DNA of 64,000 nt. Source: a virus. The notes below the pieces were generated by a model. The model saw nothing but the letters and a program-made list of their open reading frames with translations, was not told the DNA's origin and searched no databases. Shown here one piece after another: positions 50,258 to 56,541 of the stretch. A program made the position numbers and the translations under genes. Numbering within the stretch: position 1 is the stretch's first letter; each line of letters opens with the position of its first letter. The stretch lies in the IMG/VR virus record IMGVR_UViG_3300009788_000087; one strand, given 5' to 3'.

Positions 50258-50333
50258 TGGTACCGCCGAGTGGATTCGAACCACCACTTTACGCGTTCTA
50301 AGCGCGCTCTCTCTGCCGTTGGAGTACGGCGGT
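50258..50333 (-). tRNA. trnL: tRNA-Leu(TAG), short variable loop
   Basis: Loop CTTAGAA, A73, CCA. Confidence 0.9.
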
Positions 50334-50363: not shown

Positions 50364-50440
50364 TGGTGCCCCGAGTGAGATTCGAACTCACACTGTCACG
50401 CGTCTCAGGCGTGTCTCTCTTCCAATTGGAGTATCGGGGC
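50364..50440 (-). tRNA. trnL: tRNA-Leu(GAG), short variable loop
   Basis: Loop CTGAGAC, A73, CCA. Confidence 0.9.
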
Positions 50441-51436: not shown

Positions 51437-51525
51437 ATGGGCGTCCTAGGCCAGACTAGACGATACCTCCCTACGTATGCATCCGTAAGTTGAAAGGCAG
51501 TAGGATTTGAACCTGCGTTTCCCAT
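51437..51525 (-). ncRNA. circularly permuted, anticodon-less tRNA mimic (unit D)
   Basis: Order: ATGGG / var / T arm / TGCCTTT-hairpin-GGAGGTA / D arm / CCCAT. Confidence 0.75.
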
Positions 51526-51531
51526 AAACTT

Positions 51532-51619
51532 GAGGTGGCTCTGCCGCTGAGCTACAATTCCTCGTCGGTCATGGCCGAACATCATCAGAATTGGTTGGAT
51601 TCGAACCAACGCACACCCC
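51532..51619 (-). ncRNA. circularly permuted, anticodon-less tRNA mimic (unit C)
   Basis: Order: GGGGT / var / T arm GTTGG-TTCGAAT-CCAAC / CAATTCT-hairpin-GGAATTG / D arm / ACCTC. Confidence 0.8.
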
Positions 51620-51621
51620 TT

Positions 51622-51702: not shown

Positions 51703-51833
51703 TGGTGGGGGAGACGGGATTCGAACCCGCATAACCTGAAGCCCTTTAAAAACTTCGCGCCAGTCCAATTGCTGGACTTCTAGGTGTTAACACCACATAT
51801 AAAGCGGCTGCCTATCCAATCGGCTACTCCCCA
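51703..51833 (-). ncRNA. 131-nt tRNA-like RNA with giant branched variable region and encoded CCA
   Basis: Acceptor, D arm, T arm and ACCA all present; about 60 extra nt 3' of a TTTATAT-loop arm. Confidence 0.7.
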
Positions 51834-51914: not shown

Positions 51915-51920
51915 AAAAAG

Positions 51921-52000
51921 TGGACGCGAAGAGAATCGAACTCTTGTCCTAAATTGTTCCATTTGTCGGCTTACAACCTAGTCGAAACCAGCGCGCGCCC
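51921..52000 (-). ncRNA. ssrA: mini-tmRNA (tRNA-like domain only)
   Basis: GGGCGCG...TGGTTTCGAC, G3:U70, P2a stem, GGAC linker, T arm, A73; only a 15-nt loop where the mRNA domain should be. Confidence 0.75.
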
Positions 52001-52482: not shown

Positions 52483-52601
52483 AGAAGAGATAGAAGACAA
52501 CCGTCATGCAACATGCTTGCAATCTATCTCAATGAATCAACAAGTTGCAATTGAAGATCCATAACTCATCCTGAATAGCCCAAGGATTTCCAGACGAGTA
52601 G

Positions 52602-52675
52602 TGCCCGCCGCGAGATTCGAACTCGCAACTCTCACTTTTTGAAAGTGATCCCTCTTCCAATTGGGGTAGACGGGC
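52602..52675 (-). tRNA. trnL: tRNA-Leu(CAA), short variable loop
   Basis: TCACT-TTCAAAA-AGTGA. Confidence 0.9.
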
Positions 52676-52785
52676 TAACGACCGCGATTGAACCCGGCCG
52701 ACACGTTTTTGATTCCGATGCAATTAATATTACAGCAGCTAATGATCGTCCGGTTCGAACATACCAGGAACGTGCTCCTGGATTG

Positions 52786-52858
52786 TGCTCCTGAAGAGAT
52801 TCGAACTCTTGCTGGACCGGGCTTAAACCGGATGTCTCTGCCGTTGGACTACAGGAGC
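52786..52858 (-). tRNA. trnL: tRNA-Leu(TAA), short variable loop
   Basis: Loop TTTAAGC. Confidence 0.9.
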
Positions 52859-53974: not shown

Positions 53975-54487
53975 CTAACGTGTTTGTGTTTTGCTTCCAA
54001 CATTATATCTACCAATATTTTTATGTTTTACACAGAAGTCCGCAACGTGCATAGCAGCCCATGAATCTGGCTTCGTAAGAACATTAAATCCCTGACCAGT
54101 GACGTAACCAACAAGTTCTTGCAAATACTTTGAAGACTTGTATCGCAACTTTGGATTTACGTCAATGTGGATACAAAGTTCAACATCCTCCGATAAAACT
54201 TCGTTGAGTTCGAATCCAATCTCAATGCTTTTCGATACTTCCGTGAGAAGACGTTCCCTGAGAGATGTGATGCGTGGCACTTTTTCCGTTGTCCACAGGA
54301 CTCTTCCACCTTTTCCAGGCTTCAAGAGGACAACGACTCGCACGAATTCAGTGATAAGCTCGTGCTGCTGTGAGTCACAACCAACGTGGATCAAGCGATT
54401 ACCATCAGCAGTTGACTTCACAACCTCAGCAACATAATCATCAACATGTTTTCCACTCAACGTCTTCCATGTTAGTACGCTTGCCAT
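53975..54487 (-). CDS. RNase H-like YkuK (DUF458) family protein
   Basis: IHVGCDSQ, RERLLTEVSKS, IHIDVN, KPDSWAAMHVAD. Confidence 0.85.
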   Translation of the reverse strand: MASVLTWKTLSGKHVDDYVAEVVKSTADGNRLIHVGCDSQQHELITEFVRVVVLLKPGKGGRVLWTTEKVPRITSLRERLLTEVSKSIEIGFELNEVLSEDVELCIHIDVNPKLRYKSSKYLQELVGYVTGQGFNVLTKPDSWAAMHVADFCVKHKNIGRYNVGSKTQTR

Positions 54488-55304: not shown

Positions 55305-55343
55305 AAAAAAAGACCCAAGGAGAATAGCCTTCTCCCCGGGTCG
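55305..55343 (-). terminator. intrinsic terminator closing the permuted-RNA transcript
   Basis: GACCCGGGGAGAA-GGCTA-TTCTCCTTGGGTC followed by a T-run. Confidence 0.85.
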
Positions 55344-55367: not shown

Positions 55368-55558
55368 ATTGTTGCGACTTATGTTGATCAACACGTTTAA
55401 TCTTCGTCTTTAGATCTAAGAACCTGCGAGTTACCATTACTCCACCTCGTCGCTCAATTCACTGATTATTTCAATGAACTCAGCGACAAGGGCTGGATAC
55501 GAACCAGCATTTCAGGTGAATTTGTACGAAGAGTTAGAGATGACCTACCACAACGATA
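55368..55558 (-). ncRNA. YrlA-like (Y RNA) permuted tRNA mimic (unit B)
   Basis: ACCTG / AAAT / T arm / approx. 20-bp closed acceptor hairpin / D arm / CAGGT, extended by a long terminal helix. Confidence 0.75.
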
Positions 55559-55561
55559 TTA

Positions 55562-55793
55562 AACTTTTGAGGAATAGTCTAAGTTTTACTTATCACTTTT
55601 AATGGACATAGAGAGTTAATCTCTACGCGTCTACCAATTTCGCCACCCGATATAAACGGAGCAGTGAGATATCCACGACTTAACGTATTCATCTTTGCTC
55701 CTAACCAGTATATCTACTGGTTTAGTTATCGGGGCAGGCATCGAACCTACACGTCCCTAAAATGATCAATGAACTTTAGTCTAAATCTCAGCT
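55562..55793 (-). ncRNA. circularly permuted tRNA-Leu(UAA)-like RNA opened in the variable arm (unit A)
   Basis: T arm, CCCGATA+A73, 74-nt insert, TATCGGG, Leu-type D arm, TAGAG-ATTAACT-CTCTA; TGTCC pairs with the upstream GGACG. Confidence 0.75.
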
Positions 55794-55806
55794 TACCTCA
55801 AACCTC

Positions 55807-56541
55807 CTAGCTACCAAACAGGTAGTCAAAAACTCGTTTACCGACCGTTGCCTTTGGAGCATTGGTGCTATTTGCTTCTTCACGTGCAAACTTCGCTGCC
55901 TTAAGCAGAGTTTCAATACGACGAAGGAACGTTTTCTTCCGTGAAGAGAGAATCGCGCCGGACTGCTTCACTGTATCCCAGTGACCGACCGTAACATCTC
56001 TAGTGATGAGCTGTGTCTGAGCTGGATGTTCTGGCGTTGCATCGTACATGACAATCGGCTCTTGGACCTTTGCCGTCGAACGTGTTGTCACTGCGGCAGT
56101 CTTGAATAGACTCGCAGCATCATCATGATTCCACTCCTCATCCGTGGAGAGAGTTGGCAGCGACTCAACGAATGTCCTAATGTCAATCAACTGCTTCTCA
56201 AGGAAAAGCAAATACGTTGCTGGAACCTTTTCCAAAAGAACAGCACCGTCTACAACAACATCAGCTTTTGCTGCAGTGTTGGCAAAATCCTTCTGAGCGG
56301 TGACATCAAACAATTCACTAAGCGACTCAGACGCCGCATCGAGAACTTCATCAACACGCGCTTGGACATGCTTGATCTCGTTAGGGCGTTCTTCACCTTC
56401 CTCATTACTCTTTCGCCACGATTTAGCAAAACCGTTAAAAAGATCACTCTTTTGAGCGACCTTGTACAACCTTGTGAGCTCCGACTTTGCTCGAGTCTTC
56501 ACACCCTTCTCAATAGCGATTACTTGATTTAGTTTTGGCAT
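55807..56541 (-). CDS. conserved coiled-coil hypothetical protein (phage/actinobacterial family)
   Basis: MPKLNQVIAIEKGVK...VPATYLLFLEK...HPAQ...AKFAREEAN; I recognise the family but know no function. Confidence 0.85.
   Translation of the reverse strand: MPKLNQVIAIEKGVKTRAKSELTRLYKVAQKSDLFNGFAKSWRKSNEEGEERPNEIKHVQARVDEVLDAASESLSELFDVTAQKDFANTAAKADVVVDGAVLLEKVPATYLLFLEKQLIDIRTFVESLPTLSTDEEWNHDDAASLFKTAAVTTRSTAKVQEPIVMYDATPEHPAQTQLITRDVTVGHWDTVKQSGAILSSRKKTFLRRIETLLKAAKFAREEANSTNAPKATVGKRVFDYLFGS

What the first reader, a model, noticed from the sequence alone, without database searches (positions are those of the whole stretch)
55562..55793. tRNA-Leu(UAA) permuted through its variable arm: a possible two-piece tRNA
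Seen: it keeps an anticodon arm (UAA), a Leu-type D arm and A73. The RNA ends form the variable arm (TGTCC/GGACG), extended into a ~35-bp helix with TAGACT on both strands. The acceptor strands are joined by a 74-nt two-hairpin insert. Known: two-piece tmRNAs mature by excising such an insert with RNase P and 3' trimming plus CCA addition. Inference: a new permutation class giving a chargeable two-piece Leu-tRNA with a giant arm, or a Y-RNA variant. A32 and C37 argue against normal decoding.
Basis: partly seen in the sequence, partly recalled or inferred. Interest (0 to 1): 0.88.

Follow-up and report, generated by a model that had tools for sequence, protein, structure and literature searches.

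The report
Phage tRNA-Leu mimic RNA beside DUF7873
The flagged stretch is a real back-to-front tRNA-Leu look-alike, the first of two tRNA-shaped domains in an apparently undescribed RNA. That RNA follows one unknown protein gene (DUF7873) in many phages and bacteria, and it is a tRNA mimic, not a decoding tRNA.

Summary
On the minus strand, 55562-55802 folds exactly as described (z -4.6): T arm, 7-bp acceptor stem closed by a 74-nt two-hairpin insert, Leu-type D arm, a hairpin at the anticodon position, and a long interrupted closing helix at the variable-arm position.

It is not a one-off. A covariance model built from 30 relatives, without the window, finds it as its top hit (51 bits, E 3e-13). 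The same core follows the DUF7873 gene in 46 of 47 phage or assembly loci and 75 of 80 bacterial species loci. A second permuted module (B, 55372-55555) and a terminator come next.

Stems covary: 0 broken pairs in 39 sequences.

The "anticodon" is not conserved. Relatives carry 3-11-bp hairpins with 4-10-nt loops there, or none. A decoding two-piece tRNA-Leu is therefore rejected.

The acceptor end follows pre-tRNA rules (A73, C74, CCA in 21 of 42, U-1, G+1). RNase P opening, as shown for M. smegmatis YrlA, is plausible but untested.

No Ro60 gene, Ro-binding motif or Rfam match was found. The closest known kind is YrlA, and this is a Ro60-independent variant.

This scan has flagged the same family many times on other DNA.

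The parts
55807..56541 (-). DUF7873 gene (244 aa), the conserved protein partner or neighbour. Its stop codon abuts the RNA.
   Evidence: Pfam PF25283, E 8.9e-94. 5280 homologous clusters, all unnamed. AF2 model pLDDT 91.8 with no informative fold match.
55753..55802 (-). Domain A, 5' strand of the closing helix. It carries a six-nucleotide repeat track (GCUGAG AUUUAG ACUAAA ...).
   Evidence: Folds. Own flanks pair better than flanks of other loci, permutation p<=2e-4. YUNAR spacing peaks at 6, 12 and 18 across the family.
55734..55750 (-). Domain A T arm (5 bp, loop UUCGAUG).
   Evidence: CM R1 alignment. T-stem covariation with 0 broken pairs in 39 sequences.
55727..55733 (-). Domain A acceptor 3' strand. 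A73 follows at 55726 and CUA at 55723-55725.
55653..55726 (-). A73 plus a lineage-specific 74-nt insert of two hairpins that closes the acceptor stem. A putative RNase P site lies between 55653 and 55652.
   Evidence: Fold. The insert is absent from the closest relatives, whose loops are 7-14 nt. No Rfam ribozyme match at E<=10. No copy elsewhere.
55646..55652 (-). Domain A acceptor 5' strand (U1-G7).
55627..55645 (-). U8 G9 plus the Leu-type D arm (3-bp stem, 11-nt loop).
   Evidence: 22 of 23 bases match annotated tRNA-Leu genes, with hits in all 5426 E. coli genomes. D-stem covariation.
55608..55626 (-). Capped hairpin at the anticodon position (loop AUUAACU, or 7 bp plus UUAAC). Neither its loop size nor its sequence is conserved.
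   Evidence: relatives have 3-11 bp stems with 4-10-nt loops (GAAA, CACAA, AACG ...).
55566..55607 (-). Domain A, 3' strand of the closing helix. It starts with GUCC, which pairs with GGAC two nucleotides before the T stem.
   Evidence: (junction pairs fully compensated in 11 loci).
55372..55555 (-). Domain B, a second permuted tRNA-like module. T arm 55492-55508; acceptor 55485-55491 with 55445-55451; G73; D arm 55428-55442; 3' tail with a UUAAACG motif.
   Evidence: R1 hit of 30.8 bits, E 2e-7. Closing helix: own partner is the best partner in 32 of 39 loci. Fold.
55312..55342 (-). Intrinsic terminator that ends the DUF7873-A-B unit.
   Evidence: 13-bp stem plus a U tract.

Best explanation
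The stretch is domain A of a roughly 440-nt non-coding RNA transcribed behind the DUF7873 gene and ending at the terminator at 55312-55342.

Architecture:
- The RNA carries two circularly permuted tRNA-shaped domains, A and B.
- Domain A copies the acceptor, T and D body of tRNA-Leu, including A73, but has no working anticodon.
- In this sub-lineage the stalk that carries domain A leaves the junction at the variable-arm position, and a small non-conserved hairpin occupies the anticodon position.

Function, inferred:
- The RNA most likely works as a tRNA mimic within an RNA-protein unit with DUF7873. It would present tRNA-like heads to enzymes that recognise tRNA bodies and ends.
- Because the acceptor end obeys the same sequence rules as real pre-tRNAs, I think it more likely than not that RNase P and 3'-end trimming or CCA repair open the closing loop. 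That would leave a nicked, two-piece molecule held together by the stalk, as shown for M. smegmatis YrlA.

Shown here: structure, family membership, gene linkage and end signals.
Inferred, not shown: transcription as one unit, processing, protein binding and any charging.
For: Structure and membership:
- The fold equals the proposed cloverleaf, z -4.63. The whole unit folds as two domains, z -4.9.
- All 15 core pairs are kept in 39 sequences, and 14 of them show double changes.
- CM R1, built without the window, gives 51.2 bits, E 3e-13, as the top hit of the window. Domain B scores 30.8 bits.
- Closing helices of A and B pair better with their own partner than with others, p<=2e-4.

Linkage to DUF7873:
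- The core lies downstream on the same strand in 46 of 47 viral or assembly loci.
- The same holds in 75 of 80 bacterial species loci, among them Streptomyces, Nocardia, Myxococcales, Planctomycetota and Chloroflexota.
- No promoter-like site lies between the gene and the RNA, and one terminator follows B.

End signals:
- A73 in 33 of 42 loci, and in 63 of 68 bacterial loci.
- C74 in 38 of 42, and CCA in 21 of 42 (p 5e-27).
- U-1 in 24 of 42 and G+1 in 31 of 42.
- The helix breaks exactly after 7 bp in 39 of 42.
- The phage's own 32 tRNA genes show the same positions 74-76: CCA 18, CUA 4, CCG 4, CAA 3, CUC 2, CUU 1. U-1 occurs in 22 of 32.
- Domain A in the window reads A-CUA.

Other:
- The D arm matches tRNA-Leu genes.
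- Precedent for cutting and CCA addition: PMC4201824.
Against: - No transcript, end-mapping, binding or charging data.
- DUF7873 is near-neutral (median pI 6.3) and has no recognisable RNA-binding fold. Direct binding rests on gene linkage only.
- In the window CCA is degraded to CUA, and the loop holds a 74-nt structured insert.
- In 3 of 42 A modules and 7 of 39 B modules, the window's B among them, the helix runs on past 7 bp. That would hinder RNase P.
- S. Typhimurium YrlA is not cleaved.
My samples are biased towards close relatives.
Confidence: 0.62

Rival explanations
1. A true two-piece (split) tRNA-Leu. After RNase P cutting and CCA repair it is leucylated and decodes UUA/UUG on the ribosome, with the long helix acting as an oversized variable arm.
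For: - Class-II connectivity, a 5-bp stem with a 7-nt loop and U33-UAA is possible.
- Leu-type D arm and A73.
- The phage's four ordinary tRNA-Leu genes lack a long variable arm.
Against: - The loop is not conserved. The closest relatives have 4-7-nt loops (UAAC, GCUUCAA, CACAA, GAAA) and other lineages have no hairpin at all.
- Positions A32 and C37, and an A32-U38 pair that shrinks the loop to 5 nt.
- A normal tRNA-Leu(UAA) already exists at 52785-52858.
- The module always travels with domain B and DUF7873.
Confidence: 0.03
2. A YrlA-type Y RNA that works with a Ro60/Rsr protein, encoded elsewhere in the phage or by the host, as in known bacterial and phage Y RNAs.
For: - Same module order as YrlA: terminal stem, T arm, capped acceptor stem, D arm.
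- Tandem Y RNAs are known.
- 22 phages with YrlA were reported in PMC4201824.
Against: - No ORF longer than 250 aa lies within 4 kb.
- No TROVE domain in the 19 window ORFs scanned.
- TROVE is absent from 4 of 5 large related phage records.
- The GNCGAAN0-1G motif is absent from the window and present in only 2 of 42 relatives.
- No Rfam match, even at E<=10.
- The constant neighbour is DUF7873.
Confidence: 0.07
3. A structured 3' UTR acting in cis. The tRNA-like folds only stabilise or regulate the DUF7873 mRNA, for example as exonuclease blocks or processing signals. There is no separate RNA product and no mimicry function.
For: - The RNA starts at the stop codon, with no promoter-like site between gene and RNA.
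- tRNA-like structures at mRNA ends are known stabilisers (general knowledge).
Against: - Very deep conservation of tRNA tertiary-interaction nucleotides, discriminator bases (A for A, U for B) and CCA. This goes far beyond what a generic block needs.
- Two distinct heads and a conserved repeat track.
- Pistol ribozymes sit just after domain B in two close relatives, which suggests a defined RNA 3' end.
Confidence: 0.08
4. A closed, never-cleaved decoy that soaks up host tRNA-targeting toxins or tRNA-modifying enzymes on its own, with DUF7873 only co-expressed.
For: - It sits inside the phage's tRNA region.
- One bacterial copy lies beside a type I R-M and AAA_21/RloB genes.
- Some members have fully paired extensions past the acceptor stem.
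Against: - There is no anticodon loop to attract anticodon nucleases.
- The tight, near-universal linkage to DUF7873 argues for a joint function.
- CCA, U-1 and G+1 signals are unexplained if the loop is never opened.
Confidence: 0.15

Closest known systems
YrlA (Y RNA-like A) of bacteria and phages, especially M. smegmatis YrlA (Chen et al. 2014, PMC4201824; structure preprint 10.1101/312249)
   Same: - A terminal helix made by the RNA ends carries a tRNA-like body in the order T arm, capped acceptor stem, D arm.
- tRNA tertiary nucleotides are kept.
- It often occurs in tandem with a second RNA.
- The 7-bp-acceptor form is cut by RNase P and gains CCA in vivo, giving two pieces.
   Different: - No Ro60/TROVE neighbour, no GNCGAAN0-1G motif and no Rfam match.
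- The constant neighbour is DUF7873.
- The stalk carries a six-nucleotide repeat track.
- In the window's sub-lineage the stalk leaves at the variable-arm position and a hairpin sits at the anticodon position. YrlA has the reverse arrangement.
Two-piece tmRNA from permuted ssrA genes (alpha-proteobacteria, cyanobacteria; from my own knowledge)
   Same: - Gene order: the 3' acceptor half with the T arm and CCA comes first, then an intervening segment, then the 5' acceptor half.
- Maturation by removal of the intervening segment.
   Different: - No G3-U70 alanine identity: 1 of 39 relatives, and U3-A70 in the window.
- No tag reading frame or pseudoknots were identified.
- A full D arm is present.
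Circularly permuted tRNA genes of Cyanidioschyzon merolae and some archaea (from my own knowledge)
   Same: The 3' half is encoded upstream of the 5' half, and the two acceptor strands are joined by a short linker.
   Different: - Those genes mature through a bulge-helix-bulge cut and a circular intermediate into an ordinary decoding tRNA.
- Here the ends form a conserved 40-50-nt-per-strand stalk and no conserved anticodon exists.
Bacterial class II tRNA-Leu
   Same: - D arm nearly identical to the E. coli tRNA-Leu D arm.
- A73 and an A15-U48-type Levitt pair.
- Five-way junction with two nucleotides between the variable-position helix and the T stem.
   Different: - Permuted, with the acceptor stem closed.
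- The anticodon-position hairpin varies in size and sequence.
- Not found by ARAGORN or the Rfam tRNA model.

Membership tests
YrlA / bacterial Y RNA | tRNA-like module (T arm, capped acceptor stem, D arm) enclosed by a helix made of the 5' and 3' ends | tested here: met
YrlA / bacterial Y RNA | Encoded within about 4 kb of a Ro60/TROVE gene and on the same strand (criterion of PMC4201824) | tested here: not met
   No ORF longer than 250 aa within 4 kb. No TROVE in 19 window ORFs. 4 of 5 related large phage records lack TROVE. The rest of this phage genome could not be searched.
YrlA / bacterial Y RNA | GNCGAAN0-1G Ro60-binding motif near the 5' end | tested here: not met
   Absent from the window. 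Present in 2 of 42 relatives.
YrlA / bacterial Y RNA | Match to a curated Rfam Y RNA or YrlA model | tested here: not met
   No Rfam match over the element at E<=10. None at gathering score in 27 related loci.
DUF7873-linked tandem tRNA-mimic RNA (undescribed; defined by this and earlier scan work) | Lies directly downstream of a DUF7873 gene on the same strand | tested here: met
   The RNA starts at the stop codon of 55807-56541. Linkage in 46 of 47 and 75 of 80 loci.
DUF7873-linked tandem tRNA-mimic RNA (undescribed; defined by this and earlier scan work) | Core matches a covariance model built from relatives only | tested here: met
   51.2 bits, E 3e-13, full length, all pairs standard.
DUF7873-linked tandem tRNA-mimic RNA (undescribed; defined by this and earlier scan work) | Second permuted module B and a six-nucleotide repeat track on the stalk | tested here: met
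   Domain B at 55372-55555. Repeat spacing 6/12/18.
Decoding tRNA-Leu | Conserved 7-nt anticodon loop with U33, a Leu anticodon and a purine at 37 | tested here: not met
   The window has C37. Relatives' loops are 4-10 nt and unrelated in sequence, or absent.
Decoding tRNA-Leu | LeuRS identity elements (A73, Leu-type D arm and tertiary core; from my own knowledge of E. coli tRNA-Leu identity) | tested here: met
   A73. The D arm matches tRNA-Leu genes.
Decoding tRNA-Leu | Aminoacylation with leucine | not testable with these tools
   Needs a charging assay.
Two-piece tmRNA | G3-U70 alanine identity pair | tested here: not met
   The window has U3-A70. G3-U70 occurs in 1 of 39 relatives.
Permuted tRNA gene (C. 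merolae type) | Ends joined through a short bulge-helix-bulge motif, giving a normal contiguous tRNA | tested here: not met
   The ends form a conserved, interrupted stalk of 42-50 nt per strand with a repeat track. No conserved anticodon.

The most novel reading that the evidence does not exclude
After RNase P cutting and CCA repair, head A is charged by LeuRS and head B by another synthetase (its U73 and class-I D arm resemble tRNA-Gly). The DUF7873 particle would then carry aminoacyl groups outside translation. It could serve as a donor for a non-ribosomal aminoacyl transfer, as a sensor of charging, or as bait for toxins that attack charged tRNA ends. The variable-arm-open class seen here would be a living intermediate showing that the family descends from a class II tRNA-Leu.
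Probability: 0.12. Interest if true: 0.9.

Novelty: new variant of a known kind. Interest (0 to 1): 0.66.

Why it matters
If this holds, a very widespread gene would gain its first functional handle: a conserved RNA with two tRNA-shaped heads. DUF7873 has over 5000 protein clusters and occurs in at least 600 bacterial species, including culturable Streptomyces, Nocardia and Myxococcus, as well as many large phages.

It would show that Y-RNA-style tRNA mimicry is not tied to Ro60.

The window adds a topological variant with the stalk at the variable-arm position. That variant links the family to class II tRNA-Leu.

The pre-tRNA-like end signals make one question directly testable: are these mimics opened, CCA-tailed and perhaps charged?

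Tried and rejected
- ARAGORN and Rfam do not call the element.
- blastn against phage records found nothing.
- No whole genome is held for the window.
- DUF7873: no PHROG, NCBIfam, PADLOC or PDB sequence match.
- Foldseek against PDB gave no hit at E<=0.001.
- VIA-align's best match was 3kdq_A, an uncharacterised protein, at Z 8.9 with rmsd 8 Å. The Atlas returned only DUF7873 itself.
- The 74-nt insert is not a known ribozyme at E<=10 and has no copy in the window or in IMG/VR.
- No paper in the library mentions DUF7873.
- A raw comparison of own against foreign flank duplex energies was only weakly discriminating, because the stalk motif is conserved. It needed double-centring.
- My first registration of tRNA 3' ends was off by one and was redone.
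- In the DUF7873 tree, rows L009 and L017 were mis-translated by my script. Their placement should be ignored.
- Readings rejected: decoding tRNA-Leu, tmRNA, C. merolae-type permuted tRNA and Ro60 Y RNA. The reasons are in the membership tests.

Full report
**What is there**

ViennaRNA's unconstrained fold of 55562-55793 reproduces the proposed permuted cloverleaf exactly. The energy is -71.7 kcal/mol against -51.1 ± 4.5 for shuffles, z -4.63, and none of 200 shuffles fold as well.

The order of parts along the RNA is:
- stalk 5' strand;
- T arm (55734-55750);
- acceptor 3' strand (55727-55733);
- A73 (55726), followed by CUA;
- a 74-nt insert with two hairpins;
- acceptor 5' strand (55646-55652);
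- U8 G9;
- a 3-bp D stem with an 11-nt loop (55627-55643);
- a hairpin (55608-55626);
- stalk 3' strand.

ARAGORN and Rfam do not call the element. The D-arm segment matches annotated tRNA-Leu genes at 22 of 23 bases, with hits in all 5426 E. coli genomes, so "Leu-type D arm" is correct.

Two corrections are needed. The stalk is an interrupted helix of five paired segments with one 15-nt internal loop.

**It is a member of a large family**

The upstream gene (55807-56541) is a DUF7873 protein (Pfam E 8.9e-94). I fetched 55 IMG/VR loci through this protein. Nearly all carry, 50-190 nt after the stop codon, a first module with the same order of parts. About 150 nt further on sits a second module, B. 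The window has B at 55372-55555, followed by a terminator at 55312-55342.

Evidence for the shared structure:
- In a MAFFT alignment of 39 A modules, RNAalifold recovers the T stem, the 7-bp acceptor stem and the D stem. No pair is broken in any sequence, and 14 of 15 pairs show double changes.
- A covariance model built from 30 relatives, without the window, scores the window's module A at 51.2 bits, E 3e-13. That is the best hit in the 64-kb window. Module B scores 30.8 bits. Most remaining hits are junctions between adjacent real tRNA genes, with non-standard acceptor pairs where the alignment was shown; two further hits (51529-51620, 51465-51526) are other permuted units.
- The stalks were tested by pairing each 5' flank with every 3' flank. 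After row and column centring, own partners pair better than foreign ones for both A and B. The permutation p is <=2e-4, and for B the own partner is the best partner in 32 of 39 loci.

Evidence for the gene linkage:
- The model finds a core downstream of DUF7873, on the same strand, in 46 of 47 non-duplicate viral or assembly loci. That includes 16 of the 17 loci not used for training.
- It also finds one in 75 of the 80 best bacterial species loci. These span Streptomyces, Nocardia, Rhodococcus, Actinoplanes, Myxococcales, Planctomycetota, Chloroflexota, Armatimonadota, Acidobacteriota and Cyanobacteria.
- DUF7873 itself has 5280 protein clusters, all unnamed.
- Two bacterial chromosomes that I read directly show gene, A, B and terminator in that order.

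These samples favour close relatives.

**The "anticodon arm" and the permutation point**

I folded each A module with the three core stems fixed and walked round the junction. Three classes appear.
- Class 1 is the majority. The D stem is followed after 1 nt by the stalk, and the stalk is followed after 5 nt by the T stem. This is the plan of a class I tRNA whose anticodon stem is opened.
- Class 2 covers 11 of 42 loci: the window, its closest relatives L059-L061 (63-67% protein identity), L001, L003, L007, L008, L033, and the bacterial loci L057 and L058. The D stem is followed at once by a capped hairpin, then by the stalk, and the stalk ends 2 nt before the T stem. The four junction-proximal stalk pairs differ in nearly every locus and are always complementary.
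- Class 3 covers 7 loci. It is the reverse arrangement, with the stalk at the anticodon position and a hairpin at the variable position, as in YrlA.

The classes cluster on the DUF7873 tree: 0 of 500 label shuffles were as clustered. Two rows in that tree are faulty, and the root is unknown.

The hairpin at the anticodon position is not an anticodon arm in any functional sense. Across class 2, stems run from 3 to 11 bp and loops from 4 to 10 nt (GAAA twice, CACAA, AACG, GCUUCAA and others). For L059 the automatic walk mis-assigned the stalk partner; read by eye, its hairpin is GAGU/ACUC with loop UAAC. Only the window can be drawn with a 7-nt loop, and its free-energy fold prefers 7 bp with a 5-nt loop. 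The phage also already has an ordinary tRNA-Leu(UAA). A decoding two-piece tRNA is therefore rejected.

**Acceptor-end signals**

Across 42 non-redundant A modules:
- N73 is A in 33.
- C74 is present in 38.
- Positions 74-76 read CCA in 21 (binomial p 5e-27) and otherwise mostly CUN.
- Position -1 is U in 24, and +1 is G in 31.
- In 39 modules the helix stops, or nearly stops, after exactly 7 bp.

B modules have U73 in 26 of 39 and CCA in 12 of 39. In 68 distinct bacterial A modules, A73 occurs in 63 and CCA in 19.

The phage's own 32 tRNA genes show the same pattern. All have C74. Positions 74-76 read CCA 18, CUA 4, CCG 4, CAA 3, CUC 2 and CUU 1. U-1 occurs in 22 of 32. The window's module A reads A-CUA, as do four genuine tRNA genes of this phage.

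A capping loop has no reason to keep these signals. They are what RNase P and 3'-end maturation use. Chen et al. showed that M. smegmatis YrlA, which has a 7-bp acceptor stem, is cut by RNase P and gains CCA in vivo. S. Typhimurium YrlA is not cut (PMC4201824).

Against a universal cut, 3 of 42 A modules and 7 of 39 B modules continue the helix by 3 or more pairs. The window's B is one of them.

**What it is not**

- There is no Ro60. No ORF above 250 aa lies within 4 kb. No TROVE domain was found in the 19 ORFs scanned. TROVE is missing from 4 of 5 large related phage records.
- The Ro-binding motif GNCGAAN0-1G occurs in 2 of 42 A modules and not in the window.
- No Rfam family matches the element in the window or in 27 related loci.
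- The alanine identity pair of tmRNA is absent.

**The stalk and the protein**

The stalk 5' strand carries a YUNAR word repeated every six nucleotides, with spacing counts of 61 at 6, 34 at 12 and 21 at 18. The window reads GCUGAG AUUUAG ACUAAA.

DUF7873 folds confidently (pLDDT 91.8) but has no informative structural or family relative. It is near-neutral, with a median pI of 6.3. Binding between protein and RNA is therefore an inference from linkage alone.

**Verdict**

- The best reading is a Ro60-independent, YrlA-like tRNA-Leu mimic that forms domain A of a two-headed RNA linked to DUF7873.
- Its acceptor loop is probably opened by tRNA-processing enzymes. I put this at about even odds for this copy.
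- I found the pairing described in no Rfam family and no paper within reach.
- This scan has flagged the same family on other DNA many times. My scores rest only on what I tested here.

Noticed in passing
L061:1996-2060 and L060:3144-3207: Pistol self-cleaving ribozymes (Rfam RF02679, 57.7 and 52.5 bits) lie just after domain B in two of the window's closest relatives. The window has an intrinsic terminator at that place. They may set the 3' end of the RNA.
   Followed up: partly
window 52785-52858, 52601-52675, 50258-50333, 50364-50440 (minus strand): All four tRNA-Leu genes of this phage are only 74-77 nt and have no long variable arm. That is unusual, because bacterial tRNA-Leu is class II. 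Their D arms resemble the D arm of the majority class of module A.
   Followed up: partly
window 51529-51620 and 51465-51526 (minus strand): The permuted-core model also hits two further small permuted tRNA-like units that are not next to DUF7873 (29.1 and 11.8 bits).
   Followed up: partly
window 51918-52000 and 51706-51833 (minus strand): An 83-nt Rfam tmRNA hit that spans only the tRNA-like ends (64.1 bits), and a 128-nt tRNA hit with a large internal insert (36.5 bits).
   Followed up: no
L058:1-8732: In a 3.5-Mb bacterial chromosome the DUF7873-RNA unit sits directly after a type I restriction-modification system and an AAA_21/RloB pair, which is a defence-island setting.
   Followed up: no
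L074, L077, L078 (Herpetosiphon), L090: These DUF7873 loci gave no hit to the permuted-core model within 1.5 kb downstream. They are possible exceptions to the linkage, or they carry diverged RNAs.
   Followed up: no
window 53975-54487 (minus strand); L059:4062-4577: An RNaseH_like (PF04308) gene lies about 1.3 kb downstream of the RNA in the window, and again in two close relatives (one of them a record without DNA).
   Followed up: no
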